A DNA stretch of 64,000 bases, taken from Tubulanus polymorphus (taxonomy: Eukaryota; Animalia; Nemertea). The notes below the pieces were generated by a model that did no database searches, was not told the origin of the DNA, and worked only from the letters and a program-made list of their open reading frames with translations. Each line of letters starts with the position of its first letter. The stretch's first letter is position 1. Shown here one piece after another: positions 149-62,454 of this stretch. The stretch lies in contig NC_134026.1 of assembly GCF_964204645.1 (NCBI RefSeq), positions 11,307,950-11,371,949 of the forward strand, read 5' to 3'. A program made the position numbers and the translations under genes.

Positions 149-832
149 ATTTAAAAAAATGCTATAATTCTATCATTTAGATGCATAAAATACCACCAAT
201 ATCGACTATTATACATATATTGGATCATATACAATGTATTACGGTATAATATGGTACAATTTCTAGTGAATCCAGTTCACGTGTTGGAAATTAACTCCTC
301 TTTGATTTGTACAAACAACGAGATACTGGGATTGGAGTCCTAATACATATAAATTTAGATTAGGTTCCGAAAGGTTATATAAGTGAATATGCATTAAAAG
401 ATATACATTTCTCTCCGATCCATTCATATTTAAGTGTCTAATGATGGGAATGACTTTACATACAATATAACTACCAAGAGGATTTTTACCTGTTACCATG
501 AAATTCGAATGGTTTACAGTGGACTTAATATGAAACAAAGAGGTGGCTCACCAGCCTTAAAGTAGTCTATAATAATAGCTGGTGTATATTTGTCTATACA
601 GAGACTGTAATTGTATTTCATGAACAGGGAGGGCTAGTGAGTGAATGAACAACTAAATGAGTTAATTTTACTTTATATACATCTAAAAAACTATTCGCTT
701 TTTGACAAATCTTGGTTATATGAAATCCATTTACAGCTCAAAATCAATTTTGTGAAGTTCTGTTGACGCGATGTAGAGAGAATCCCACAATGATAATAAA
801 AAGTCCGACAAATGAAACTTCGAGATAGTAGT

Positions 833-879
833 TTATTTCAACGTTTCGACTATATCCTAATAGTCATCTTCAGGAATAA
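833..879 (-). ncRNA. Minimal type I hammerhead ribozyme in PLE pLTR
   Basis: Minus strand reads ttattcCTGAAGAt-gactat-taggat-atagtc-GAAAcgttgaaataa: CUGANGA and GAAA cores, 6-bp stem II, palindromic minimal stem III, as known for PLE hammerheads. Confidence 0.8.
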
Positions 880-1334
880 TGAGATACTACAAAAATTATG
901 AGATATATATACAATCCAGAGACAAAGAGACTAATTCAAGTAATCAGAGATGATACAAACTAAAGGAAAATTAACGTAGAAACAGTTACACGCTAGAATA
1001 GATTAAAGGGAAGCAAACCAAGGGGTAATTATAAACAACAATAGTGAGTATAAATATAAATTGAAACTTAAAATCAATAGTAAAGAGACAAACTAAGGGG
1101 CACTTAAATTAAAACAATGGAGTTAAATTAAAACAATTAAAACTTTAAACCTGAAAGCGGAGTTGCTAGTCATGTATTTCAGACCTCGCACAATTTTGAT
1201 TTCGCTAACGCTGAATTAATTTACCCTTGCAGCGATAAAACTAAAAGACATATTTTGGAATCTGCATTAATAATTGAAAATTCAAACAACGTTGTAAATC
1301 TTAACAATCTTAACATAATTTTTGTAGTATCTCA

Positions 1335-1381
1335 TTATTCCTGAAGATGACTATTAGGATATAGTCGAGACGTTGAAATAA
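1335..1381 (+). ncRNA. Hammerhead ribozyme copy with GAAA to GAGA core mutation (probably impaired)
   Basis: ttattcCTGAAGAtgactattaggatatagtcGAGAcgttgaaataa. Confidence 0.7.
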
Positions 1382-1446
1382 ACTACTATCTCGAAGTTTC
1401 ATTTTTCGGACTTTTTATCATCATTGTGGGATTCTCTCTACATCTT

Positions 1447-29956: not shown

Positions 29957-32520
29957 AAAGACCAATGGTCTTGTAGCTCACCTGACCATTAACTCATAGG
30001 CAGTTTAAAGACTAGTTATATCCCATGTCCAAAATGGATTACACGCTGGTCTTATTGCAAGGGCCGGGGCATGATGGGAAGAGGAAAATCGATATACACA
30101 TTGCCTTTCAAACCTTCAAAGGGGCGATCAAAATCAAACGGCAACTCTTGTTTTAATAACCATATTTATTTTCAGATAATAATATTCGCATCAAAAGATA
30201 GGATAGGAGCTAGGCCTAATCATATCAGAAGTTTTGTCTTAGAATATTGCTTGAAACGTGTTTTTTGAAAAAATCTATAATTCCTGATTCAGTGAGTCGA
30301 GGTGGTGACTCATTCTTGGGGTACCGGTATCTGTAAAACAATGCGTAAGATCAATAGAAATAAAGTGAAAATTAAATTGCTTTGAATTGAATTGCAATCA
30401 CAGTATAATACTAGATAAGAGGATTGATATCCTGTCCGTCGGTCCCGTACTAACATCTTGCTGTAGTAGACATTTTCGGGGCACTAAGGACCAATGACAA
30501 TCATTATTCATAGAATATCTTACCTTCATTGACCAGAAATAGCGTGTAAATACACGAGTGAATAAACCAGGAAATGTGGTAGTGTGCGGTGTCTAGTGTA
30601 CGGAGACGCATCGGGGCATTCACAAATATAATCAAAGAAACCGAAACTTTGATCAGTTGAAACAACTAGGGGTCCAGGGACACCATGCCCACTTGGGAAG
30701 TGGTTCCAAATGCTCAACAATCTAACAATTTCAATATTCAACGCCCCCTGGTGGCCATATACAAAAACCAATGGCCTTGAAACTCACCACTATCATAGAA
30801 CATGTCAGCAGCTACAATTTTGTAATTGATTGTGATAACAAAATATGCCTCATTACAAATTTAAAATGGAAATACTAAGTTATTCTACTATTCAACGCCC
30901 CCTGGTGACCATATTCAAAACCCAATGACCTCGAAACTCACCACAATCATAGAACATGTCACGAACTATAACTTTGTAATTGATCATGGTAACAAAATAT
31001 ACCTAGGTACCAATATAATAAGGAAATACTAAATTATTCTACAATTCAACGCCCCCTGGTGACCATATAGAATAACTAATGGCCTTAAAACTTGCCACAA
31101 TCATAGATGATGTCATGAGCTACAACTTTGCAATTGATTGTGGACAAAATATGCATTGATACGAATATAATATAGAAATACTAAGATATTGTATCATCCA
31201 ACGCCCCCTGGTGGCCATATACAAAAACGAATGACCTTGAAACTCTTCACAATCATAGAACACGTTATGAGCTACAAGTTTCTTACCGATTGTGGTAACA
31301 AAATACGCTTAGGTATCAATATAATGTGGAAAAAGATTTTCCCACCTACGAATGAGTACTGATAACACCAAGATGGCCGCCAATTGCATCATAATTGGCT
31401 GATCAAAAATACCTGTCTCAGGTATAAAACATCCCTTTTCAAAGAATACCCATCACAAATTGCAATGAGAAATGGCAAACCAGAAGGGAGCTACAGGACC
31501 AGAATTCAGGCCAAAATTGACATTTGTGGGCACTAAAAAAGGTCATAGGACGGTCATCTTGAGTCCGATCGACCCAATTTTCGTGATGCTGATGGGCCCT
31601 GGGGGGATTCACATATATCCGAAAGATCAAGGTAATTGATCAAAGCGTCTTCAAAATTTCCCTCAAAAAGTTCAAAAGTGTTGATTTTGGCGAACAACAA
31701 TGGCTGCCAGTCGGCCATCTTGATTCTGACAGGGCCAGTTTTTGGGCTGAAGATGTGCCTAGGGTAGATAGATACATGTTTAACCCAAATATCAAGACAT
31801 TACATTGAAGCGTCTTCAAAACTTTCCCAAAATAACTGTATCCCGTCTACGGACGGACGACGGACGAAAAGTGAACGCAATAGCCCGCTGGGACTTAAGT
31901 CCCAAGTGGGCTAAAAAGTCAACATTGCGACTAAAATATCATGAAATAAAATTTAACCTCGATCTCGATTGATTCGAATTAAAAATAACAATCCACCATT
32001 CGGCGAATTCTGTCCACATTTGAATTTCAAAAATGTTCCTAATAGGCTACCATATTTCTTGGATCTATCCAAGAAACGATAGTTCATAGGTCGAGCCACG
32101 TTATTAGAGAGTTAGGCGAGTCAGACCCCTGCGTTTAGGCCGGCCTGGAAGTAAATCTAGACGTTTACCAGCTAAAATTATGTGAAAATGTTTGAACAAC
32201 ACCCAAAACTTTATAGTACTAGCAGTCCGGGTCTATTATGATTTCAAAGAAACGCATGTATACAAAAATAACGGCAATTTGCTTCGATTTTGGTATATTT
32301 TCGATTATTCCACATAAACACGAGTTCAGAATTCTATAAAATTTTCAGATTGTAAAATAGATACTATATGACACCTCCGATAAAAAATCAGATCTCAGGA
32401 CCATCTAGATAAAAAGTGTGCCACCCATTTTACTGAAATTTTTCGCATAGGCAAATGCATTGGAAGCATGACGTCATCAGCTAGTGATAGCAAAAGCGAA
32501 CCATAGGTTCATCTTTTGCA
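29957..32520. mobile_element. Composite host-repeat insertion with Helentron-like hairpin ends, containing a nested HINE
   Basis: Higher-GC block; ends aagaccaatggtctt-gtagctcacctga and gcaaaagcgaaccataggttcatcttttgc. Confidence 0.55.
30661..31917 (-). mobile_element. Complete HINE/DINE-1-like non-autonomous Helentron with ~154-bp internal tandem array (about 4 units)
   Basis: Subterminal IRs gcccacttggg / cccaagtgggc, terminal hairpin tagcccgctgggacttaagtcccaagtgggcta, (GGAC)n microsatellite, A-run flanks; acgccccctgg at 30741, 30895, 31049, 31201. Confidence 0.85.
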
Positions 32521-34369: not shown

Positions 34370-34755
34370 ATAAATGATTGATAACCATAAGGTAATGTGT
34401 CACCCTGAAATATATCTTTTATCATCAAATGGATTTAAGCAACTTCATTAATGTACATATTGTGATTGATCTTAATTCATTTTATGTTTCATTACTATTG
34501 AGTTATATAAACACTGTATATAATCTTAAAATTATATATGTTTATCAACCACATGCTTTGTTATTCGTTTTAACTTTTTAGCTTCATGATCATTAGTTCT
34601 ATAACTATACATTTTACTTCTTATCCCAACAAATTCAATCATTCCATCACCTCCTAGTTCATCTTTAAATTTACCGGGCTGCTTTTTATTTTCGTTACTA
34701 AATAATTCATGATCTTTAGGATAATTGCTAAAGTCACAATGATGCTTTAAATCTT
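34370..34755 (-). pseudogene. Copy A polB C-terminus, cut by insertion of copy B
   Basis: DFSNYPKDHELFSNENKKQPGKFKDELGG...GIRSKMYSY...LNPFDDK. Confidence 0.85.
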
Positions 34756-35119
34756 AGTAATAGGAGTTTAGTTGTTCCAGATCAAAGGTCGAACGGTTGA
34801 GCTCATTAAAAACAAACTATTAAAAGTAATTTAAAACTATAATATATTTTCATAGCCGTGTGTATTTTATATTATAACTAAATATTTATTCTAAGATATT
34901 AATAATTTAAATTTTATAAGCTCCGCGACCAATTGATTTATTTACAATACACAAATTCATATAATCAAATATATTCAAATAATAATAATTATTCTATTAT
35001 TTAACTAAAATACACACGGCTATGAAAATATATTATAGTTTTAAATTACTTTTAATATTTTGTTTTTAATGAGCTCGACCATTCAACCTTTAACCTAGAA
35101 CAACTAAACCCCTATTACT
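34756..35119. repeat. Terminal palindrome of copy B (centre partly deleted)
   Basis: agtaataggagtttagttgttc ... gaacaactaaacccctattact; ~110-bp arms. Confidence 0.9.
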
Positions 35120-35392
35120 CTTAAAATATTTATATACATGAATAAAATATATAAGAATAACATATAAATTGATAGATTATTCAATATAAAAGTGTTAGTA
35201 AAAAAGTAACGAGTAATTAACGAGCTCTTATAGAATTGATAGATAGATATATTTTAAACATTATTTCAATATTCATAATTGTATGAGTTAGATTTTTAAA
35301 CATTAAAAGTGTTAGTAAAGTGTGATTGAAATAATTCATATTTAAATCATTGAACTTCTAAAATCAATTTTAAAAAAAAATTTAGTATTAAA

Positions 35393-38300
35393 ATGGAAGC
35401 AAATAAGTACTACTGTCCAACATGTAATATCAATATAGATAAATCCCAAAAAGCAAGACACAATAAAACTAAAACACATTTAGAGAATAAATTGAAATTA
35501 GAATATGAAGATGATATATTAGAAACTAAATTAGATGAATTAAAGAATGAAAAAGAAACATATAAATGTGATACCTGTAATCAATCATTCAGTGATAAAA
35601 GATATTATAAAGAACATTTAAATCTAAAAGTCATATTGGAAATATGAATAATGATATTTTAGGTGAAGATTATTTTGATAATGACAATGATAAGAAACAT
35701 AAGGCAATTAAAAGAATAAGAAATAAATTAAACAATAAAAGACCATACATGGAAGATGTAAGAAATTATATTAATTCATTAGATAATAAAAAAGATATAG
35801 AGATAACCGAAGCATTTAAAAGTGATATTGGCCCATCAGCTATTGAGTTTAAATTTCATAAAGGAAAAACATTAGAAGAAAATAAAAAACATTTAGAAAA
35901 TATTAAAAATATTATAAAAATAATTACAGATGTTGAATACCCTAAAATTAGTATATCTTCTAAAGTAAAGTTTATAAAATCTGAAGATAAACCAATATAT
36001 ACTATAAATTCTCATTCACAACATATTATATCTAAACAACATATAGATGATAAATTAGATAAATGTTATAATGAAGTAAAAACTAAAATAGAAGAGAAAT
36101 ATTTTGAAGGATCAGGTTTAATATTTGATGAAATAATATTTATGACTTTACATGTTTATAACACTAAATATAATAAGTTAACTAAATCAAAACCAATTGA
36201 TGAAAATAATGTATCATATTATAAAGAACCAGATATTGAAGCATGGAGTTATATTAAAATACCATTTAAAACTAATGCTGTAATAAATGTACAAAATTTT
36301 GATGATAAATGTTTTCTATGGGCTATAATTAGTTGCTTACATCCTGCAACTGATAATATTTGTAGATAAACTCATTATAAACCATTTGAAAATAATTATA
36401 AGATAGATAAGTATCCTGTCAGAATTAGAAACATCCCAAAAATAGAAAGAGATAATAATATAAAGATAAATGTGTTTGATTTACTCAAATTACCAAAAAC
36501 AAAAGGTAACAATATAAAACATTATACATTAGAACCTTTATATCTATCAAAAGATTATGATTCAAACGATGTTATAGATATATTATATTATGAGAATCAT
36601 TATATGTGGATTAAAAGAATTGATTTATTTTTTAAATCAGAAAATGATTTTGATAATAAAATATATCTATGTAGAAAATGTTTACATAAATTCAGAACTG
36701 AAAGTGCATTATTAAATCATAAACAATTATGTGAAAATCATGATTATTGTAAATTAGTTTTACCAAATGAAAAGGATAAAATATTAGAATTCAAAAAATA
36801 TGATTACAAAAATAAAGTACCATTTGCAATATATGGAGATTTTTAATCATTAAATAAGGAACTAACTGATCAAGATAGAAAAGAAATATATTATAAAAGA
36901 AAGAAATTAAATTCTAATGAAAATGATTTTTCATATGAACCACCAAAAACAAATACAATTAAAAAGATTCATCAATCAGCTGCAGCTTTCGGGTTATATA
37001 TAAAATCTGATTATCCAGAACTAATTGAAAGTGAATATTATGATTATAGAAATGAAAATGTTATCAATCATTTTTGTGACTTATTAATTGAATATGAAAT
37101 AGGATTTAGTAAATTATTGAATACAAACATAGAAATTATAATGACAGAAGAAGATAAAGAAGAATTTGTGTTCGCAGGCAAATGTTATTATTGTGAAAAG
37201 ATATTTAATTATAAAGATAAAAAAGTAAGAGACCATGATCATTTGAATGGAAAGTTTAGAGGTGCTGCGCATGAGAATTGTAACTTACAAGCTAAGAAAA
37301 TTAATTTTGTTCCAGTTATATTTCATAATCTATCAGGATATGATGCACATTTATTCATCAAACAGTTATGCCATAAAATAGAAGAAATCAATAATGAAAT
37401 AGAAAGATTAAATTCAAATAGATCAAAAGATAAAATGCCAACTTATAAATTTAAAATGTTAGCTAAAACATCTGAGAATTATATATCATTCCAATTTGGT
37501 TGCCTAAGATTTATAGATTCATATAGATTTTTTAATAGTTCATTAGATAACTTATCAAAATCATCAGTTGATGATGAATTAAAAATATTAAAACAACACT
37601 ACCCAAATAATGATGATTTTCAATTAATGAGATATAAAGGAGCAATTCCATATTCATTTTATAAATCACATGATGATTTCAATATAACTGAATTATTAAA
37701 AGAACAATTCTATGATGAATTAAAAAATGAATATGTTAAAGATGAAGTATATAATAGAACATTGAATATTTGGAATCATTTCAAAATAGAAAATCATGGA
37801 CAATTAGTAGATTTATATTTAAAATCAGATGTATTATTATTATCGGATATATTCGAAAGGTTTTGGAGATGTAAACCTAAAATATTCTAATATTGATCCA
37901 TGTCATTGTTATTCTAGTCCAGGCTTAACATGGGATTGTGGATTAAAATTTACAGATATAAAAATGGATTTGTTAACAAATATAGATCAATTATTATTTG
38001 AAAAATCTATAAGAGGAGGAGTCTCAGGTGTATTAGGCGATAGATATTTCAATGTAAATGATAACCCTGGATATAAGTTATTATATATAGATGCAAATAA
38101 TTTGTATGGTTGGGCAATGATGGAACCACAACCTTATGGAGTATTTGAAATAAGTGAAGTTTTACAACATGATAATAATGATAAATTTGATTGGAAGAAA
38201 AGAATCCTAGATATTGCAGATGATTCAGATACTGGTTACTTCTTTGTTGTAGACTTAGAATATCCTGAACATATTAAATTTAAATCTAGAAATCTAGCAT

Positions 38301-49753: not shown

Positions 49754-50365
49754 ATGAATAAAGATTTATCTATATTTGAATCGCATAATATGTTAGTTAC
49801 TGGTGTAACAAATTGTGGTAAAACACATTTCATATTAGATTTGTTAGAAACTATTTATAAGAATCATTTTGATAATATAATATTATTCTGTCCTACTTAT
49901 GAAATGAATAAAACATATAATAGAGATATAGTTAAGATGAAAAAGTTTATTATATTAAATCCTAAAACAGTAAAAGAAAATTTAGATAATTGTATAAAAA
50001 TAGCAATTGATACTTATAAAGGATCAAATACATTATTCATTGTAGATGATTGCGAAAATTTACATGATTCAAAAGTTAGAGAAAGTGAGTTATGTTATTT
50101 AGCTTTCTCTGGAAGACATTTCGGGATAACAACATGGGTTTTAAATCAAAAATATAATTCAATTGTTAAAGACTTTAGGGAGAATATAAGATTTCTAGTT
50201 TTATTTTATAACAAAGATAAAAACTCTATGCAACAATCATTGGAAGAAAATCAAATTATACCTACTGAATAACATGATGAATATATGAATAAATTAAAGA
50301 ATAATAAAGGTTCAAAATTATTACTGAGACTACAATTTCCCTATGAATATAAATTTATAAAATAA
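49754..50365 (+). pseudogene. A32/FtsK-like packaging ATPase (premature stop at ~50270)
   Basis: GVTNCGKT, FIVDD, SGRH, NQ motifs. Confidence 0.92.
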
Positions 50366-50398
50366 AATTTATAATTTGGAATATTATAGAAACTAATT

Positions 50399-50697
50399 TA
50401 TATATCTATGTACTAGACGTACGAGTAAGAAAGTAAGATTCTTACCTTTTAACTTTCTTGGCAGGAATCTTGGATTCTTACGTACGTCTAGTCCATAGAA
50501 ATATGAATTATTAAATGAAATATATAATAATGAATAAATCATATATCAAAACTATGTTTATAATTTATGTTTATAATTTATGTTTATAATTTATGTTATA
50601 ATTTATGTTTATAATTTATGTTTATAATTTATATTTCTTGGCAAGGATTCTTGGATTCTTACTTTCTTACTCATACGTCTAGTGCGTAGATATATAA
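50399..50697. repeat. Convergent intergenic region: ~42-bp inverted repeats around a (TTTATAATTTATG)n array
   Basis: tatatctatgtactagacgtacgagtaagaaagtaaga vs tcttactttcttactcatacgtctagtgcgtagatata; about six 13-bp units at 50555-50632. Confidence 0.8.
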
Positions 50698-50719
50698 ATA
50701 TTTTTATAGATATATAAAT

Positions 50720-51800
50720 AGTTTTATAATAATTATTCTAATTTTGTTTCTAATACATTTATAAAATCATCTTTGTTTATATCAAATTCATCAGAAGTCT
50801 TTGGCATATTTATTAATTCTATTTCATCCTTCATTCTACGTTCATCATCACTTAATCAAGCTTTTATTCTTAATTTTTCAAAGTAATCATTAGAATTATC
50901 ACCATCAAAATCAAATTCAAAATCATTTATTAAATTAAATAAATCTAGGTATCCATTATACGCTAACTTATATATTTGGTCAGGATTATCTTCTGCATAA
51001 GCTAATAATTTATCAAATAACAACTTAAAGAATATATGATATTGTTTAGTTTCAGGATTAAAATATTTGATATATTTCTTTGGTTCATCTAACAATGGTA
51101 ACATACCCACTTTTTTATAAACATTAATTAGATGTAATTTTGATTTATAACGAGTAATTTTATCAACAGGTTCAATTTCTTTATTACAATAATCACATAT
51201 TAATTCTTTTTCATTTTCTATGTGCCCCTTAGATTTTTTATGTTTAGAAAAATTACTTTTAGAAATATCTAAATTACAAATGTTACAATGTTTTTTAGAA
51301 TCATCAATTATTTCATTATCTGTTATATCATTATCATTAGTTTCAATTGGGTTAACATTATCTATTACATTATCTGTTATATTATCTATGGTATCATTAG
51401 TTTCAATTGGGTTAACATTATCTTTTATATTACTAACTGATATATTATTATCATTATTTTTCTTTTCTTTTTCTATATGTTTCTTTGATTTCTTATGTGA
51501 TGCCCAATTTTTATATGATATATATTTCTTACATACATCACAATATTTTGGATTATAATAATCTTTTTTTGATTCAATATCATATGTAGAGGGTATATTA
51601 TAAGATGTAGATGCTGTTACATCTTCTATTTTAGTTTCAATATTATTACTATCTTCTATTTTAGTTTCAATATTATCTTCTATTTTATATTCAATATCAT
51701 TCTTATCTTCTATTTTAGTTTCAATATTATTTTCTATGTTAGTTTCAATATTATCTTTTATTTTACTTATTCTATATTTGAATTGATTAAAGTAATCTCC
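50720..51800 (-). pseudogene. Copy C accessory multi-zinc-finger gene with IETKIED repeats
   Basis: CDVC...HKKSKKH, CNIC...HKKSKGH, CDYC; disrupted, start unclear. Confidence 0.65.
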
Positions 51801-51835
51801 AAAATACTTTATAAATTTTTATTAAAGTTAAAATT

Positions 51836-53070
51836 TTAATACATAACACTATTTAATTGAGAATTTACAATATTTAATTGCGCGTCAGATATAATATAAA
51901 TGTGCATTTTGAAATTTAGGCTTCCTTTTTCTTTGTCATGAATAATTGTATTCCATCTTTAGTGTTTTGTAATTTTTTTCCAGCACCATGTAATGAATTA
52001 TCCTCTGTCGTTCTAAAATCTAACCATAATGCATATATATTACCGGTATAATAATCAATTTGATCAATATTACAATTTTCAGATGATTTCACTTTCTCAT
52101 TCATAAAATGTTTTCTAATTTCTGGCCATTGATCAATCATTCTCATTCCTTGACAAAATATTTTATTTGCTATTCCTTCGATAGATATTTCTACTTTTGT
52201 TATTTCAGGATTATAATAATTATCAACATTTATTGCACCATTAGTATATGTTGCAATGGTAAAAATTATTAATATACCTTTAATAGATCTTCTTGGGAAG
52301 TTAATATTCTCATTAATAATTTCATCATTTTTAATATAAATTTATCAATATAATCATATAATAATGAAAATCCTTGATTGTATTTAGTTTGAATTATACT
52401 TGAAATATTTTCATCAGTTACTGTATCATATTCTAAACATATATTCGATAATTTATAACTCATATCTTTATTAACGCTAGATAATACAATTTCATTTACA
52501 GGAGCAAATGTTATTTCGAACATAACATCTTCTTGAATTGCGTATTTATATAAAGGTGCATTATTATTTATCAATTCAAAGTCTAATGGAATTTTATATT
52601 TGCTTCCATATATACTTTTTATCAATTTATCTATAGCATTAGTTAATATTGCATTATGTGCTTCTGATCTTAATTTATTTTGGTTTTTCCGATTGGATGC
52701 CTTGAAATATCATATTATTTCTATTTTCTTTAGTTAACCATAAATCTTTATAATGCATAAATAAATTATAATCATGTAATGAGAAAACTGTTTCTGGGCC
52801 AATCTTTATAGTTAATTTTTTAATCAAATATCTTCCAACATTATCAACAACATAATTATTATTATTACCGATTACTTTTATATCGGCTGATAAATAAATA
52901 CTATTTGGAACATAAAAAGTATTTTGTGTTAATCGAGGAATTCTAACATATAAAGTTTCATCAGGATTAATATTAGAAGGGTTATGAGTAATTATATGAT
53001 GTGATCTTTCTGCTTTAATAGCATTAGATATTCTATGATTCTTAGAAGGATTGATATAACTCCCACTCAT
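51836..53070 (-). pseudogene. Major capsid protein (double jelly-roll) of copy C, frameshifted
   Basis: ITHNPSNINPDETLYVRIP, KIPLDF, YKLSNICLEYDTV, YNPEITKV, ALWLDFRT, YIISDAQLNI: motifs I recognise from adintovirus-type MCPs. Confidence 0.8.
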
Positions 53071-53093
53071 TTATTTAACAAAAAATTAATTAT

Positions 53094-54579
53094 TTATTTT
53101 TGATCATGTTTACTTGATATTTTTTGATATCATGTTTACTAACCCAAAAATAATAGCACTTACAACTGTAATTAAAAATAAAATAATATGTTCAGCAGCA
53201 AAGTTAATAACGTTTCCTGCAGATTTCAATATAAAACCAACAATTGATGCAATAATTTCTGGTAAAGCTGCAGCAGATTTGTTAGATAGTTCCCATAAAT
53301 ATTTTGCTTATTTCTTTAAACCATCTTTAACTTTATCTTGTATAGAATTATTATCTGGAGGTTTATCTGGTTTATTGGGAGTAGGAGTAGATTTCAGTGA
53401 ATTCGATATAGCTAAACCTATTGTTGTAAATAACATAGTTACAGCTGTTAGAATTGAAAGAATTGTTATTCCTTCTAATTTAAATAACAATTTTATTCTA
53501 TCTTTCAATGATATTTCAGAATCTGGTTTCATCAACAAATCTTTAAAAATAACTTTGAATCTATTTATATTATAATCATATGATTTTAATAATAATTTAA
53601 TTTCTTCTTTTTGTAATTCTATGTTATATTCTAAATCATCTTTTTCTTTTTCTAAATACGCATTTCTTTTTTTAAATTCGATTTCTTCAATTACTTTATT
53701 ATCTCTGTCTAATTTTAGTTGTTCAGATTCTTTTCTTGATTTAAATAATTCATCTTCTAAAGTTCTAATTTTTAAATCTCTTATACTTTTATCATGCGCA
53801 ATTTTATCAGCTTCATTTCTTATACTAATAATTTCTCTTATTGCTTTATCAGAAAATATATCTAAATCTTTTAATTCTTGATCTGTTGCATCAAGTAATC
53901 CATTTGGTAAAAGTTTTTCAATTGGAACTTTATTTGATTTAAGTTTACTAGTTTTGGAAGTTATATTCTGTTCAGAAGTTGTTTCTGTTTCTAAATAATT
54001 TTTGATTGTTTCAAATAATTCATTAATTCTTTGTTTAAATACTCTTTTATTTTGATTTATTTCTTCTTGTGTTACATCTTCTATTTCATTACTATTTCTT
54101 ATTCTCTTAATTCTAGATAGTAATGAGTCAGACTTAAGCAAAGTTGATTTTGCTACTATTTTTTCTTCTTTTTTATTAGAGATATTAATATAATAATCCG
54201 ATTTATCTTTCTCACGATAATAAAATTCACCATCTAAAAACTTTAAATCTTGTACTAAAAGTCTGGCGCCTCTGGCATTTATATTATATCCAGATTCTAC
54301 AAATACATGTTTGAAATTATAAATACATTCATTATATTCTAAATTTTCCTTTAATAAACCTGGATTTTCATTTTCAATAGGTATTCTCGATCTAGTTCTT
54401 CTATCAAATTCATCTGAAGATGGGGCTTTAGTACCACTTTCTGCTAAATTAGAATTATATGCTGATTCATTACCATCATCAATATTAGTATCAGCAGTCA
54501 TATAATCATCATCAATATATCCTTCATTATTATTTCCCATTTCTCCAATTTCATAATCTTCTCCACCTTTTACATCCAT
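53094..54579 (-). pseudogene. GasderminX-like coiled-coil/membrane protein of copy C (stop at 53308)
   Basis: LKDRIKLLFKLEGITILSILTA...proline linker...KSAAALPEIIASIVGFILKSAG. Confidence 0.75.
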
Positions 54580-54600
54580 TTACAAAATAAAAAATTAAAA

Positions 54601-55920
54601 TTAAAAATATAATATTCCTCCGATTACAATTCCTATACAAGTTAAAGCTAATTTAGTATTTTCATGGGATTTATTATCATCATTTAGTTTAATTATATCA
54701 TGTTGAATAATATCAGTTTTAATATTTTCTGATGTATTGTAATCTTTTATTTTAGAATCATTATTTAATTTAATATTATTAGTTTTAGTTTCAGTTGATT
54801 GAATGTGTTTTTTATTTTTTTCACCTTCCATTAATTTTGGAGCAGTGATAATCTTTTTATTTATATCATTCAATCCAAATGAATTATTTATTGTCGCAGT
54901 TTTAATTAGATTATTATAACCAATTATATTTCCCATCTTTAATACTAAATCATTAGAAATAATGAATAGATTAGGGCCTATACAATAATTTAATCTAATA
55001 TGTGATTTATCTAAATAATTTTGATATCTTACAATGTTTTCTGGAATCGATCTATTTTTATCATTATGAATTGAATCTTCAAATAATACTTTGCATTGTT
55101 TCTGCGCATCGAATGAAGTGTTATCATTTCCAATTATTGGGGATCTTGTTTCAACTTGCGCACTTAAAATACATATCAAATAAGTTCTAATAGATTGATT
55201 TATTCTTTGTATACCAGCTTTAGTAAAACCTTCACTATTTTCTAAAATGAAATTAACCCAACCATTATTATTTTGTTGTTGTATATTATTATAATATTTT
55301 GGTAATTCATTCCAATTTAGTGTTCTTATATCTGAATTTGTCATTATTTTTCCAAATTCTTTAGTATACAATATTCCTAATCCACCCATTGTTCCAATTT
55401 TTGATCTAAAATCTTTATTTGAATTAATATTAAATTCATTACATATTTTATAAAACTTAGAAAAATTAATATTATTATTCAATTCTTTAAAATATTTTGA
55501 ACCTGGTAAAGGACATTCTAATTCATCTAATATTAATTTTATTTGAAAATAAGTATGAAATCTAAAAAGTGATAACATTAATGGTAAACTTGGTTTGTTT
55601 AAATGATCATTCCAACTAATTCCACATCCTGTTGTTGCACAATAAACAGCAAAATTTAATTGGTTCTGCCAATACTTCATATTAGATTTTAATAACCATT
55701 GTTTTGCCTCATTTAAATTTTTAAAATTAATTGTATACACATGAAATATATTTTCCATCTTTACATGAAAATTATTACTTTCAGTAACATAAATATATAA
55801 ATCAATTAATGAATCTAAAACTTAATTTCTATATGAAATATCTTTATTAAAATCTATTGCAGGAATATTATATTTTATTGATTTATTATATTGGAAAGCT
55901 TTTGGAAAACTATCTGCCAT
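54601..55920 (-). pseudogene. YWQNQLNFAVYCATTGCGIS-family protein of copy C
   Basis: 385-aa ORF plus frameshifted 5' part from TAAATG at 55920. Confidence 0.8.
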
Positions 55921-55936
55921 TTATATAACTAAAAAA

Positions 55937-57402
55937 TTAATAATTTATCAATTCTTTTAATAATTTATCTTGTTCTTCAACTGTTATATGGCCATTTAAA
56001 CTTATTATATAATCTAGTGTATTCTTTAATTTATTAATTTCTTTTATATTAGTTTTAATTTTTTCTTTATTACTTTTTATATTTAATTTTGAACTTATAC
56101 CAGTTAAAACACTTGAACTTAATCCTAATACACCAATTGATATAGCTAAAGGTGTTAATGGACTGAATATTGCTAGAAATGTTATTACAGAACTAATTGT
56201 AACCGAACCACTTATAATCAAATAATATATAATTTTACTTTTTAAATATTTTTTCTTTTTAACTTTAAATCATTTTCAAATTCTAATATTTGTTTTTCTA
56301 AATATATTTTCAATTTAGTTTTATTTATATCATGAGGAATAATATCAATATTATCAACTTTATCATCCATTTATTTAGCAAAAAAAATTACTAATTAGTA
56401 AACTTATAAGCAACAAATATAACAATAACTGTTCCACCTAAAATCCATATTATTTCATATTTCTTCTGTTCATTACTTGGGGTATAATAATCTGATAATT
56501 TAGGTTTGTATAGATGTAATTTTTCTTTTATTTGTTACTGCGTTATATAAACTCATTGCATCATCAACTGATTGAAAATCTCTATGTGAAATCTTCTGAT
56601 CATATAATTCCTTGTTAATATAATCCATATAGTTTTGTCTCTTTTCTCTAATTCTTCCGCTGCTTTATTTGTATTTCTCTAATGCTAAGTTATGTCTTTT
56701 TTGTTCTGTTAATGAACCATTTTTATCAATATGTTTAAATAAATAACCGCCACCAGTAAATGCTAAAGCGTTAACAATTGCCGATCCTATAATAGTTATA
56801 ACTGCAAAAGCCATTTATTTAGTAAAATAATTATGCATTTATATGGGAGGAATATATTTTTGTTTTTCTAAATAATCAATAGTTAAATTAGATAAAGTAA
56901 CTGCTAATGTTAATTTTAAAATATCATTTATATCAAATCTATCAACATTAACACTTCCCATTTTGAATACTTTTTTTAATACCATTGAATAACCAACAGT
57001 TCCAACTGATAGTAATGCTCCATTATATAATCCAGTTATTATCCACTTATTATCACTCATTTATTTATCAAAAAAATTACTATCATCAAAATATTTAGTT
57101 ACCTTATTTATGATTAATTCAACATTTATTTCATTACTACTTTTATGATTATCATATATTTTTGTTAATATGTTTTTAATATCATCAATCATTCCATCTT
57201 CATTTAATTCATAATATTCTAAAGGTGATTTAATTAAATCAATTACTTTTCCTATATTATAATTTTCTTTATTAATCATTGATGCATTGTTAAATGATTT
57301 ACTTTTTATATCAGTAATTACATCATTTAGTTCAATTCTTATTTCTTTACCATGTTTAAAATCAAACCCAAAACATATACTCGGTCCAACAGTTATATTC
57401 AT
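55937..57402 (-). CDS. Copy C cluster of four small genes (55937-56370, 56391-56814, 56839-57060, 57061-57402), some frameshifted
   Basis: Colinear with 40579-42274. Confidence 0.8.
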
Positions 57403-57419
57403 TTATATAGTGAAAAAAA

Positions 57420-58167
57420 TTACTCTTTACATCTTATAACTAATTCATAAATTACAGGGAAATTATTTAAATCAATTAAGTATCCATTATGATTTCTAAT
57501 TTCTAATCTAAAATTATTAAAACGAGGAATGCATGGTTTGAAATCACATTCTGTTAAATTATAATTTATTTGCGTTCCAAATTCTTTAACATTCTTCAAT
57601 GGTAAAATGTTTAGTAAACCAGAATTACAAGTTATATCTTTAGTTGCTTCGAATGTTTTTGTAGGATCGATTAAATTGCAATAAATATAAAAATGTGTGT
57701 AAGGTATTAAGTTTGGTGTAACAGCATCAATATTTGGAAGAATTCCTAATAGTTAAGCTATAGGTTTTTTTACCATAAATTTATGTTTTTCACTATTAGA
57801 CAACCTTATCTTTATTATATCAGAACTATTACTTTTTAAAAATCTAATACTAAACCCAGAACTACTACCTAATTTGTGCCAGGCTTTTCTATTAATTTCT
57901 TGTGCTAATGTATCAAAATTATATAACCCCGGTTTTAAATATATCTAGGACCATTCATTTTTACCTTAATCAAAAATTAAAAAGGCTCTATGTTCAATAG
58001 TTTTATCCGATATATTATAAAAAAGAATTACATAAACTTATATTTACTAATTTTAAATCAACACAATTCTTAAATTCTCTATCTAATTGAACTAATAAAT
58101 TATGTGATTTATAATTTGTAAGTTTTCTTGAATCAACAAATATTCTGTATTCTTTTAATTCCGCCAT
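57420..58167 (-). pseudogene. Copy C penton
   Basis: Homologous to 39807-40562, frameshifted, divergent centre. Confidence 0.8.
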
Positions 58168-58182
58168 TTATTTTTACATATT

Positions 58183-58536
58183 TTATTCGAAATCTATTTC
58201 ATGATGCCCTTTTTCATTCTTACCTTTGTATACGAAATAGAAATCACCAGAACATAATTCTTCTAGATCTTCACTTGATAATCTATGAAATCTATCCTGT
58301 AAATATGTTCTGAATTTATATGTATTTCCTTTTAATCCTTCATATTCTAAGTGTATAACTAATTTATCTCCATAGTTATTAGTAACTGTATCAATATTTG
58401 TAATTAAATATTTCTTATGAATTGTTAATTCTGTTAACTTTTTGAATTTATAATCTACAGATTTTACATTTTTTATATCTTTAATTCTATCTAGAAATAA
58501 TTTGTTGTTCTCACTGTGTGTTTGTTTACTCTCCAT
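58183..58536 (-). CDS. Copy C homolog of ORF 39439
   Basis: Near-identical 117-aa protein. Confidence 0.75.
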   Translation of the reverse strand: MESKQTHSENNKLFLDRIKDIKNVKSVDYKFKKLTELTIHKKYLITNIDTVTNNYGDKLVIHLEYEGLKGNTYKFRTYLQDRFHRLSSEDLEELCSGDFYFVYKGKNEKGHHEIDFE

Positions 58537-58564
58537 TTTAATAACATATTTTATTAAAATTTAA

Positions 58565-60011
58565 TTAACACGTTAGAATTCTTTTCATTATCTCGTTCTC
58601 TTTTGTTTCTTCTCTTTTAAATTTTAAGTACTCATCTAAATTACAACCATAAGCAACTGTATGAATTCCATCATCTAAAATATATCTTTTATCATCAAAT
58701 GGATTCAAACTAACCTTTTCAATTTCTTCAATAAACATTTCATGATCTTCAGATCTTAAACATCTCATCTTATGTTTTCTAACTTCTTCATTGAATATAC
58801 AATTGATGTAATCTTTGAAATGAATATTCTTTTCTACTACACTTTTGGTTATTCCTTTTAACTTTTTAGCTTCATGTTCTTCAGTTTTATATGAATACAT
58901 TTTAGATCTAATACCAATGAATTCAATCATTTCTTCACCGCCTAATTCATCTTTGAATTTACCAGGAACTTTTTTATTATCATTGCTAAACAATTCATGA
59001 TTTTTAGGATAATTACTGAAATCAAAATGATGTTTTAATGTTTTTAAATCATCAGTTATGTTATCAGTTTTTATCTTTAATATGTAAGAATCGGTATCAA
59101 AATATAATATTTCTATATGTTTTTCTCCAAAAAGTGGTTGTAATACATTATAATAGAATTCATACATTAGTAATTTTGATAATTCTAAAACTGACGCGCC
59201 AACATAGATTGGTTTATTAAATTTCATTGATGTTCTTCTCATCTTAACTGCAGCTAAATTTTCATCAAATATTCTGTTACCAATGAACTTAGGATATGAT
59301 TGTAAATGTCTAATTCTTTTACCATTACTAACTAACTCAATATCATTTCTATTTCTAATATTTTCACAAGTCTTACCATAGAATGCATTGTTCATTAGTT
59401 TGAAGAAATCTTTCTCAAAATCAGTTTTAGCTTCAGTTCTCTGTTTGGTATTAAAATCTATATTTTTCTAACCACTTAGATTGACTAAATGAAATATAAC
59501 TATGCACTTTTTTTAGGATCATTCCTTGTTTTAGATAAAACTTTAACATTCTATAATGTACTACATAATTATATTTATCTTCTTGAGTTACCATTAACTT
59601 TTCTGTATGAATATGATTTTCAGGTTTAATTCTTTTTTGATAATTTGATAATTCTTCATGAGTTACAGTTTTATGTTCTGACAGTATGCTTTTAATTGTG
59701 TTCTGTTTCTTATCATTATCTTTATCAAAATAATCTTCACCTAAAATATCATTATTCTTATTTCTAATATGACTTTTAGATTTTAAATGTTCATTATAAT
59801 ATCTTTTATCACTGAATGATTGATTACATGTATCACATTTGTATGTTTCTTTTTCATTCTTTAATTCATCTAATTTAGTTTCTAATATATCATCTTCATA
59901 TTCTAATTTCAATTTATTCTCTAAATGTGTTTTAGTTTTATTGTGTCTTGATTTTTGGGATTTATCTATATTGATATTACATGTTGGACAGTAGTACTTA
60001 TTTGCTTCCAT
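58565..60011 (-). pseudogene. polB: Copy C polB with ~2.6-kb internal deletion
   Basis: N-terminal Zn-finger part joined at ~59690 to EHKTVTHEEL; KLMNNAFYGK and YFDTDS retained. Confidence 0.92.
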
Positions 60012-60218
60012 TTTAATACTAAATTTTTTTTTTTAAATTGATTTTAGAAGTTCAATGATTTATATTATGTATTATTTCAATCAGACTTTACTAACACTTT
60101 TAATGTTTAAAAATCTAACTCACACAAATATGAATATTGAAATAATGTTGTAAATATATACTTTTATATTGAATAATCTGTCAATTTAAATGTTATTCAT
60201 GTACATGATTATTTTAAG

Positions 60219-60628
60219 AGTAATAGGGGTAATGGGCTTTCAGGTTAAAGGTTGAATGGTCGAGATCATTGAAAAAGAATATTAAAAGTAATTTAAAACT
60301 ATAATATATTTTCATAACCGTGTGTATTTCAGTTGAATAATAGAATAATAATTATTATTATAATATATTTGATTATATGAATTTGTGTACTGTAAATAAA
60401 TCAATTGGTCGTGGAGCGGAGCGGTAGCGAAGTGGAGCGACCAATTGATTTAATACAATATACATCTAAAATTCAAATTATTGATATCTTAGAATAAATA
60501 TTTAGTTATAATATAAAATGCACACGGTTATGAAAATATATTAAAGTTTTAAATTACTTTTAATGTTTTGTTTTTTAATGAGCTCGATCGTTCGACCTTT
60601 GGCCTGAAAGCCCATTACCCCTATTACT
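60219..60628. repeat. 410-bp terminal palindrome within TIR of copy C
   Basis: agtaataggggtaatgggctttcagg ... cctgaaagcccattacccctattact. Confidence 0.92.
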
Positions 60629-61175
60629 AGCATATAACATAGAATTACAAAAAGAAGAAATTAAATTATTATTAAAATCATATGATTATAATATTAATAG
60701 ATTAAAAGTTATTTTTAAAGATTTGTTGATAAAACCAAATTCTGAAATATAATTGAAAGATAGAATAAAATTATTATTTAAATTAGAAGGAATAACAATT
60801 CTTTCAATTCTAACAGCTGTAATTATGTTATTTACAACAATAGGTTTAGCTATATCAAATTCATTAAAATCTACTCCTACTCCCAATAAACCGGATAAAC
60901 CCCCGAATGATAATAATTCTATACAAGATAAAGTTAAGGATGGTTTAAAGAAATTAGCAAAATATTTATGGGAACTATCTAAAAAATCTGCTGCAGCATT
61001 GCCCGGAGTTATTGCATCAATTGTTGGTTTTATATTGAAATCTGCAGGAAACATTATTAACTTTGCGGCTGAACATATTATTTTATTTTTTAATTACAGT
61101 TGTAAGTGCTATTATTTTTGGGTTAGTGAATATGATATCAAAAGATATCAAGTAAACATGATAAAAAATAAATAA
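60629..61175 (+). pseudogene. GasderminX-like gene of copy B, C-part
   Basis: YNIELQKEEIKLL...KDRIKLLFKLEGITI...SAAALPGVIASIVG. Confidence 0.8.
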
Positions 61176-61195: not shown

Positions 61196-62454
61196 ATGAG
61201 TGGGAGTTATATCAATCCTTCTAAGAATCATAGAATATCTAATGCTATTATCTATTATCTATTATGCTATTATCTATGCTATCATATAATAACTCATAAC
61301 CCTTCTAATATTAATCCTGATGAAACTTTATATGTTTGAATTCCTCGATTAACACAAAATACTTTTTATGTTCCAAATAGTATTTATTTATCAGCCGATA
61401 TAAAAGTAACCGGTAATAATAATAATTATGTTGTCGATAATGTTGGAAGATATTTGATTAAAAAATTAACTATAAAGATTGGTCCAGAAACAGTTTTCTC
61501 ATTAGAAGATTATAATTTATTTGTGCATTATAAAGATTTATGGTTAACTAAAGAAAATAGAAATAATATGATATTTCAAGGAATCCAATCAGAAAACCAA
61601 AATAAATTAAGATCAGAAGCTAATAGCGCAATATTAACTAATGCTTTAGATAAATTGATAAAAAGTATATATGGAAGCAAATATAAAATTCCATTAGACT
61701 TTGAATTGATAAATAATAATGCACCTTTATATAAATACGCAATTCAAGATGTTATATTCGAAATAACATTTGCTCCTGTTAATGAAATTGTAATACCTAG
61801 CGTTAATAAAGATATGGGTTATAAATTATCGAATATATGTTTAGAATATGATACAGTAACTGATGAAAATATTTCAAGTATAATTCAAACTCAATACAAT
61901 CAAGGATTTTCATTATTATATGATTATATTGATAAATTCAAAACTGTAACTATTAATGCAAATGATGAAATAATTAATGAGAATATTAACTTCCCAAGAA
62001 GATCTATTAAAGGTATATTAATATTTTTTACCATTGCAACATATACTAATGGTGCAATAAATGTTGATAATTATTATAATCCTGAAATAACAAAAGTAGA
62101 AATAACTATCGAAGGAATAGCAAATAAAATATTTTGTCAAGGAATGAGAATGATAGATCAATGGCCAGAAATTAGAAAACATTTTATGAATGAAAAAGTG
62201 AAATCATCTGAAAATTGTAATATTAATCAAATTGATTATTATACAGGTAATAAATATGCATTATGGTTAGATTTTAGAACAACAGAGGATAATTCATTAC
62301 ATGGTTCTGGAAAAAACTACAGAACACTAAAGATGGAATACAATTATTCATGACAAAGAATAAAGGAATCAAAAATCTTAAAATGCACATTTATATTATA
62401 TCTGACGCGCAATTAAATATTGTAAATTCTCAATTAAATAGTGTTATGTATTAG
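61196..62454 (+). pseudogene. Major capsid protein of copy B, disrupted
   Basis: Near-identical to 51836-53070. Confidence 0.8.

What the first reader, a model, noticed from the sequence alone, without database searches (positions are those of the whole stretch)
34756..35119. Both palindrome arms co-vary between Polinton copies
Seen: copy B has gtttagttgttc on the outer arm with gaacaactaaac on the inner arm, where copy C has gtaatgggcttt with aaagcccattac. B has cataGccgtg/cacggCtatg where C has cataAccgtg/cacggTtatg. Arm-specific differences (ggtcgaacgg vs ggttgaatgg) persist in both. Inference: pairing rather than sequence is conserved, through compensatory evolution or templated copying of one arm from the other.
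Basis: partly seen in the sequence, partly recalled or inferred. Interest (0 to 1): 0.75.

Follow-up and report, generated by a model that had tools for sequence, protein, structure and literature searches.

The report
Self-copying hairpin ends of Polintons
Each end of this virus-like jumping DNA element (a Polinton) starts with a roughly 400-base mirror sequence whose two halves change together between lineages but keep a few fixed one-way differences, most likely because the end folds back during the element's replication and one half is copied from the other.

Summary
Confirmed. 34756-35119 is the left end of a Polinton/Maverick (B). Both ends of a related element nested in it (C) carry the same imperfect palindrome, bounded by the terminal AGT motif on both arms. 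Eight base pairs differ between B and C on both arms (seven in one block); about twelve differences are one-armed. Raw reads show four more same-change variants on both arms. Relatives L007 (PolB 78-86% identical) and L111 (33-45%) have such palindromes with largely or wholly different arm sequence; L008 has one arm only. Fixed arm differences are polar (11 of 12 give G.T wobbles on the 3'-terminal strand). Host flanks join the outer arm in 2,415 reads and the inner arm in under 279, so there is no even flip/flop. Best reading (0.55): fold-back of the displaced strand with arm-to-arm templated copying, while selection keeps the outer arm as the working end. No replication intermediate was seen. 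A 2026 preprint reports 52-nt terminal palindromes in protist virophages/PLVs, and this scan earlier noted a hairpin near Giardia Polinton ends. New variant of a known kind.

The parts
34756..35119 (+). Terminal palindrome of Polinton B left end (364 bp); both arms begin with the terminal AGT motif
34756..34869 (+). Outer arm of B, next to the flank
   Evidence: 107 of 118 aligned positions match the inner arm
35006..35119 (-). Inner arm of B
34768..34777 (+). Co-varying block, outer copy (arm positions 13-22; 7 changes versus C)
   Evidence: C matches outgroup L008 at 11 of 12 positions here, B at 6 of 12
35098..35107 (-). Co-varying block, inner copy
34787..34801 (+). Two tandem boxes at arm positions 32-46; include arm-specific sites 35 and 39; inferred end-recognition site
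   Evidence: same distance from the terminus in B, C, L007 and L008; function inferred
34870..35005 (.). Unpaired centre of B; 46 bp shorter than in C, lacking one arm of C's second (tip) stem
35120..35392 (+). Rest of B's terminal repeat, up to the PolB start codon
   Evidence: aligns with both C ends
35393..39400 (+). B's PolB gene, broken into several frames, with an endonuclease VII-type insert
   Evidence: (PF02945, E 7.9e-06)
34405..34750 (-). PolB fragment of an older related element (A) that B interrupts
44519..44928 (+). Terminal palindrome of element C, left end (410 bp)
60219..60628 (-). Terminal palindrome of element C, right end (410 bp)
44521..45143 (+). Left terminal inverted repeat of C, 95.7% identical to 60003-60626
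44513..44518 (+). Target-site duplication, left copy (5 of 6 identical to 60629-60634)
48672..49743 (+). C's rve/chromodomain-type integrase, broken
49754..50272 (+). C's A32-like packaging ATPase
   Evidence: PF04665, E 9.5e-12
61340..62353 (+). B's major capsid protein gene (double jelly-roll); C's copy lies at 51916-53070 on the minus strand
   Evidence: the 74%-identical homologue P0001 folds like iridovirus, PBCV-1 and mavirus capsid proteins, E down to 2e-15

Best explanation
Each end of this Polinton family begins with a 364-410 bp imperfect palindrome whose arms co-vary between lineages and keep fixed one-way differences; it likely folds back on the strand whose 3' end is the terminus when that strand is single-stranded during replication, and one arm would then be copied from the other. 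Shown: the palindromes, the co-variation, the polarity of the fixed differences, and integration at the outer end. Inferred: (1) protein-primed strand-displacement replication exposes the 3'-terminal strand; (2) 3' trimming and re-extension on the inner arm homogenises the first 22-26 nt, and short template-switch or conversion tracts homogenise deeper sites; (3) selection keeps the outer-arm boxes for end recognition, while the inner copy drifts only to states that still pair (G.T wobble) and is not used as an end.
For: 8 two-sided changes between B and C. The block is derived in B relative to outgroup L008 and is fixed in both arms. In raw reads of run X4, four columns show the same change on both arms at similar shares: 28% outer vs 34-35% inner, 35 vs 37-40%, 33 vs 26%, 26 vs 25%. 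Hundreds of reads leave the reference at matching depth in both arms (606 and 353), and their loose parts look alike by eye. L007 arms match each other at 76 of 85 positions but match C's outer arm at only 53 of 87. L111 (PolB 33-35% identical over its length) has a 129-bp AGT-bounded palindrome 150 nt before its PolB. Lineage-level transition differences give G.T on the 3'-terminal strand 11 times versus 1 (P 0.003, hand tally), and that strand folds more stably by 9-15 kcal/mol in B, C and L111. Flanks join the outer end in 1,829 + 586 reads; no loose end at the inner AGT reaches the listed minimum of 279. The single-armed L008 end carries outer-type boxes. Precedent for fold-back end repair: Streptomyces Tap (PMC5449611, passages).
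Against: No replication intermediate or free end was seen (table 6 empty). The read variants are unphased, and only the best 40 of 164 and 40 of 106 rows were shown. In those rows at least eight polymorphic columns appear on one arm only. Read depth over outer positions 16-48 is about 3,700 versus about 2,000 on the inner arm, so many ends may lack a recognisable inner arm. L008, with an uninterrupted PolB gene, has none, so the hairpin is not required across the clade. Only 3 of 51 loci with at least 700 nt before PolB had a strong upstream palindrome. L007 folds equally well on both strands. End-inward recopying cannot by itself explain co-variation at positions 78, 101 and 105, which lie inside fixed mismatches. 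The polarity could partly be mutational (two fixed sites are CpG versus TpG).
Confidence: 0.55

Rival explanations
1. Hairpin-primed replication: the folded 3' end primes second-strand synthesis as in parvoviruses, and the closed end or dimer junction is resolved asymmetrically so that only one orientation is kept, possibly by the endonuclease VII-type domain in PolB.
For: The palindrome ends exactly at the terminus and the 3' end pairs to its last base. The model is proposed for virophage/PLV terminal palindromes (bioRxiv 10.64898/2026.07.28.741278, section 7). Parvovirus left ends have been reported as flip-only (PMC1185569, passages; that paper itself doubts it for LuIII). The nuclease-like domain is present.
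Against: No high share of flipped ends. The nuclease domain is also in L008, which lacks the palindrome, and such inserts are read as intein/homing remnants (PMC11161782, passages). Hairpin transfer moves both arms intact, so it does not by itself spread a new mutation to both arms.
Confidence: 0.2
2. Host-side concerted evolution or a captured mini-element: the AGT...ACT unit is a small non-autonomous element or a terminal duplication fixed at both ends, and its arms are homogenised by inter-arm recombination or quasi-palindrome correction in chromosomal copies, with no role in replication.
For: The unit looks like a complete mini-element with two ends. It is patchy among relatives. 36 reads switch between arms at or near paired columns, which fits rare conversion but also mapping or library fold-back artefacts.
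Against: Inner ends seldom meet host flanks, so the unit does not move alone at a visible rate. Integrated copies gain one-arm differences rather than losing them (6 columns private to one C end). The polarity recurs in L007 and L111.
Confidence: 0.13
3. Pure compensatory evolution: independent mutations in each arm are selected one pair at a time to keep a structure needed for packaging or protein binding, as for the mismatched poxvirus hairpins.
For: Vaccinia hairpins depend on structure and mismatches rather than sequence (PMC8956199, abstract). Isolated co-varying pairs exist deep in the stem.
Against: The stem tolerates about 10% mismatches, so selection on one pair in 114 should be weak (inference). 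Seven changes in ten bases had to reach four copies per element, and whole arms are replaced between families.
Confidence: 0.12

Closest known systems
Polinton/Maverick terminal inverted repeats (PMC8097293 and PMC10748475, passages; Kapitonov and Jurka 2006, not held, recalled)
   Same: AGT...ACT ends, about 620-bp TIRs, 6-bp target duplication, PolB, rve integrase, ATPase, double jelly-roll capsid
   Different: Here the tip of each TIR is itself a 364-410 bp palindrome with a second, inverted copy of the terminal motif; neither paper's text holds 'hairpin', and 'palindrom' is absent from PMC10748475
Terminal palindromes of Halocafeteria virophages and PLVs (bioRxiv 10.64898/2026.07.28.741278; section 7 read, figures and supplements not seen)
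   Same: Palindromes inside the TIR and next to the target duplication; hairpin role proposed
   Different: 52 nt in the subtype shown, protist host, mostly in elements without pPolB; the section reports no co-variation, polarity or flip/flop test. Here 129-410 bp, in PolB-encoding Polintons
Streptomyces telomere fold-back and Tap repair (PMC5449611, passages)
   Same: Protein-primed linear end whose 3' strand folds back and is re-extended on its own palindrome
   Different: Bacterial, several short palindromes, repair of up to 4 nt, dedicated Tap primase; no integrase
Parvovirus and poxvirus terminal hairpins (PMC1185569 passages; PMC8956199 abstract)
   Same: Long imperfect terminal palindromes with conserved mismatches
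   Different: Those occur as flip/flop isomers (except some parvovirus left ends) and are closed or Rep-nicked; here one orientation dominates, and no Rep-like gene was seen among 26 ORFs scanned

Membership tests
Polinton/Maverick | Terminal inverted repeats with AG...CT ends | tested here: met
   C: 625 bp, 95.7% identical; ends AGT/ACT, with one substitution at the left tip
Polinton/Maverick | 6-bp target-site duplication | tested here: met
   5 of 6 identical around C, inside a gene of B; B's other end is outside the window
Polinton/Maverick | Retroviral-type (rve) integrase | tested here: met
   PF00665 weak on a fragment; 37-47% to an rve/chromo integrase, E 4e-66
Polinton/Maverick | Family B DNA polymerase of the protein-primed type | tested here: inconclusive
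   PolB motifs present and many homologues carry PF03175; no direct PF03175 or PDB polymerase hit for the closest relatives; terminal-protein domain not tested
Polinton/Maverick | A32-like packaging ATPase | tested here: met
   PF04665, E 9.5e-12
Polinton/Maverick | [quoted passage not shown] | tested here: met
   fold search on homologue P0001, mean pLDDT 67
Polinton/Maverick | Adenovirus-like protease and minor capsid protein | tested here: inconclusive
   no protease found by tblastn with three distant homologues or by motif scan; minor capsid not sought
Flip/flop hairpin-ended replicons (parvovirus, poxvirus) | Two inverted-complement end isomers in about equal share | tested here: not met
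   inner-type arm next to host flank in under 279 reads versus 2,415 at the outer end; integrated copies only
Flip/flop hairpin-ended replicons (parvovirus, poxvirus) | Covalently closed or hairpin-primed ends in replicating DNA | not testable with these tools
   no free form observed
Non-autonomous mini-element (MITE-like) | Moves alone, with its own target duplication at both ends | tested here: inconclusive
   inner-end flank junctions are below the listing threshold; rare solo copies are not excluded; no assembly held
Known structured RNA | Rfam match | tested here: not met
   0 matches at E <= 1 in 34600-35500

The most novel reading that the evidence does not exclude
A clade of animal Polintons uses a two-armed end in which the inner arm is a built-in template or primer site for the 3' end, and a one-way wobble code (outer C, inner T) tells terminal protein and integrase which of two AGT ends is real. 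This would be a replication mode between protein priming and parvovirus-like hairpin priming, resolved without flip/flop, kept or re-invented across lineages whose polymerases are only one third identical.
Probability: 0.25. Interest if true: 0.8.

Novelty: new variant of a known kind. Interest (0 to 1): 0.5.

Why it matters
How Polintons copy their ends has been modelled but, to my knowledge (recalled), not shown. Ends are the only cis signals, and here natural variation marks which strand is predicted to fold, which bases are free and which are fixed in one arm only. That makes the choice between whole-genome panhandle, local fold-back and hairpin priming testable on short natural end fragments. 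It also extends terminal palindromes, just reported for protist virophages and PLVs mostly lacking pPolB, to PolB-encoding Polintons.

Tried and rejected
No whole genome is held for the window, so copies could not be phased. DNA-pattern scans for the arm found nothing in viral contigs or metagenome contigs. A capsid-alignment scan of viral contigs gave no relative. L111's host assembly holds only that one end. A loose scan for AGT-bounded palindromes found 3 in 115 loci, not above shuffles (0-3), so L007 and L111 rest on their self-alignment scores (193 and 76 bits) and their position before PolB; the third hit (L058) lies after PolB and was set aside. L085 and L103 show long TIRs without a strong tip palindrome. 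An assembly or amplification fold-back artefact was rejected: arms carry fixed differences in three ends, and reads cover the centre at 1,200-1,400 depth. The endonuclease VII-type domain was rejected as a marker of the palindrome. The bacterial promoter scan is irrelevant to a eukaryote. The '18 vs 2' binomial printed was a placeholder and is not used. The PDB sequence search with the PolB alignment gave no polymerase hit. Kapitonov and Jurka 2006 was not held.

Full report
Setting. The window is eukaryotic DNA (about 35% GC, with reverse-transcriptase and MULE genes). From about 26.6 kb it turns into a 21-26% GC block of three nested, related elements. Element A's PolB (minus strand) is cut at 34750 by the left end of B at 34756. 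A gene of B is cut at 44518|60629 by element C (44519-60628), which has 625-bp terminal inverted repeats (95.7% identical) and a 5-of-6 target duplication. The elements carry broken PolB genes with an endonuclease VII-type insert, an rve integrase, an A32-like ATPase and a double jelly-roll capsid gene, so they are Polintons/Mavericks; a protease was not found. The host is probably an animal, inferred from named homologues in insects, a clam and a hydrozoan; it was not identified.

The observation. All three ends begin with a palindrome bounded by the terminal AGT motif on both arms: 364 bp in B and 410 bp in C. The arms are about 114 bp and 87-91% alike; C has a second stem at the tip, one arm of which B lacks. 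Between B and C, 8 of 101 tested pairs change on both sides, against 0-2 for slid partners. Seven lie in arm positions 13-22. The chance value is 2e-8 for independent sites and about 0.013 if the block is one event. About 12 differences are one-armed, and 6 more columns are private to one C end. Outgroup L008 matches C at 11 of 12 positions over the block and B at 6 of 12, so the block changed on B's lineage and reached both arms.

Population evidence. One raw-read run of the same species label (X4, about 12% read) shows a high-copy family: 2,266 reads leave the outer terminus into unrelated flanks (agreement 0.38). Four columns carry the same change on both arms at similar shares (columns 11, 16, 78, 105). 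At least eight other polymorphic columns appear on one arm only in the rows shown; 124 and 66 rows were hidden and reads are unphased. Hundreds of reads leave the reference near arm positions 38-57 on both arms, with loose parts that look alike by eye, which points to further subfamilies with replaced arms. Flank junctions number 1,829 + 586 at the outer end, while none at the inner AGT reaches the listed minimum of 279; flipped ends and solo palindromes are therefore at most about a tenth. Thirty-six reads switch arms at or near paired columns; these may be conversions, flips or artefacts. Depth is nearly twice as high on the outer as on the inner arm near the tip, which I cannot explain with certainty.

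Relatives. PolB scans fetched 115 loci. L007 (PolB 78-86% identical to window fragments) has a 257-bp AGT-bounded palindrome whose arms match each other at 76 of 85 positions and C's outer arm at 53 of 87. L004 begins inside one, showing the inner arm and tip. L111 (33-45%) has a 129-bp one, 150 nt before an uninterrupted PolB gene, with no ORF of 100 aa or more upstream. L008 (62-76%) has the terminal motif and boxes but no inner arm. Overall 3 of 51 loci with at least 700 nt before PolB had a strong palindrome there (L003, L007, L111); in most loci the element end could not be located, so this is not a prevalence.

What is fixed. The terminal motif and two boxes 32-46 nt from the end keep their spacing in B, C, L007 and L008. 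Fixed arm differences are mostly outer C against inner T. On the strand whose 3' end is the terminus these are G.T wobbles; on the other strand they are C.A mismatches. A hand tally of lineage-level transitions gives 11 versus 1 (P 0.003). The 3'-terminal strand folds better by 9-15 kcal/mol in B, C and L111 and equally in L007.

Mechanism. Shown: palindromes, co-variation, polarity, use of the outer end. Inferred: strand-displacement replication, expected for a Polinton polymerase (established for adenoviruses and phi29, recalled), leaves the 3'-terminal strand single; it folds; trimming and re-extension recopy the tip from the inner arm, as Tap does on Streptomyces telomeres (PMC5449611, passages); short conversion tracts account for deeper pairs; selection keeps the outer boxes and tolerates inner changes that still pair. 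I give this 0.55. Rivals are hairpin priming with asymmetric resolution (0.2), host-side conversion or a captured mini-element (0.13), and pure compensatory selection (0.12).

What is known. Nine paper searches were run, six of them on Polinton-type ends. Only one held paper has both 'Polinton' and 'terminal palindrom': a July 2026 preprint on Halocafeteria virophages and PLVs, of which I read matching passages and section 7. It reports terminal palindromes (52 nt in the subtype shown), mostly in elements without pPolB, and proposes hairpin priming; its figures and supplements were not seen and could bear on co-variation. Word searches within PMC10748475, PMC8097293, PMC8502044, PMC11296320 and PMC11161782 (passages only) showed no description of hairpin Polinton ends. 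Subscription papers, Repbase reports and Kapitonov and Jurka 2006 were not available. This scan's earlier notes describe a compensated hairpin just inside Giardia Polinton ends and concerted Helitron end palindromes; these are unchecked leads, not support.

Verdict. Real and more than chance; a new variant of a known kind. Interest 0.5: the feature type is in a preprint, but length, co-evolving arms, one-way wobbles and the lack of flip/flop in PolB-encoding Polintons make their end-replication model testable.

Noticed in passing
window 50396-50699: A weaker internal palindrome in element C (67% self-match) with a 13-nt tandem array in its loop, between the convergent ATPase and the ORF at 50856-51818; could be a relic end or a two-way terminator.
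   Followed up: partly
window 34750-34756 and 44513-60634: Two nested insertions of related Polintons into each other; self-targeting or a preference for AT-rich DNA was not tested.
   Followed up: no
window 45135 and 60011: C's terminal repeat ends at the start codon of the first gene on each side (an HNH-like ORF left, PolB right), so the repeat body likely holds their promoter.
   Followed up: no
L003 4657-4840: A branched palindrome with outward-facing AGTAGT motifs between divergent PolB and a small cysteine-rich ORF; could be a joined-end junction or an internal origin.
   Followed up: partly
window 59451-59690: C's PolB has lost about 2.6 kb of its middle yet C has matching ends and a target duplication, so it may have moved as a non-autonomous copy.
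   Followed up: no
window 44690-44740 and L007 310-335: The tip loops of C and L007 share a short pyrimidine-rich motif although their stems are unrelated.
   Followed up: no
L004, L007 versus window B: The small ORF that follows PolB in B (39439-39792) lies between the end and PolB in L004 and L007, so gene order next to the end is shuffled.
   Followed up: no
L105-L115: Polinton-type PolB genes sit in contigs of prokaryotic MAGs, probably eukaryotic contamination.
   Followed up: no
window 770-1444 and 1447-2533: Two host MITE-like elements with long inverted repeats (95-98%) and a 154-bp repeat family at 30684-31332.
   Followed up: no
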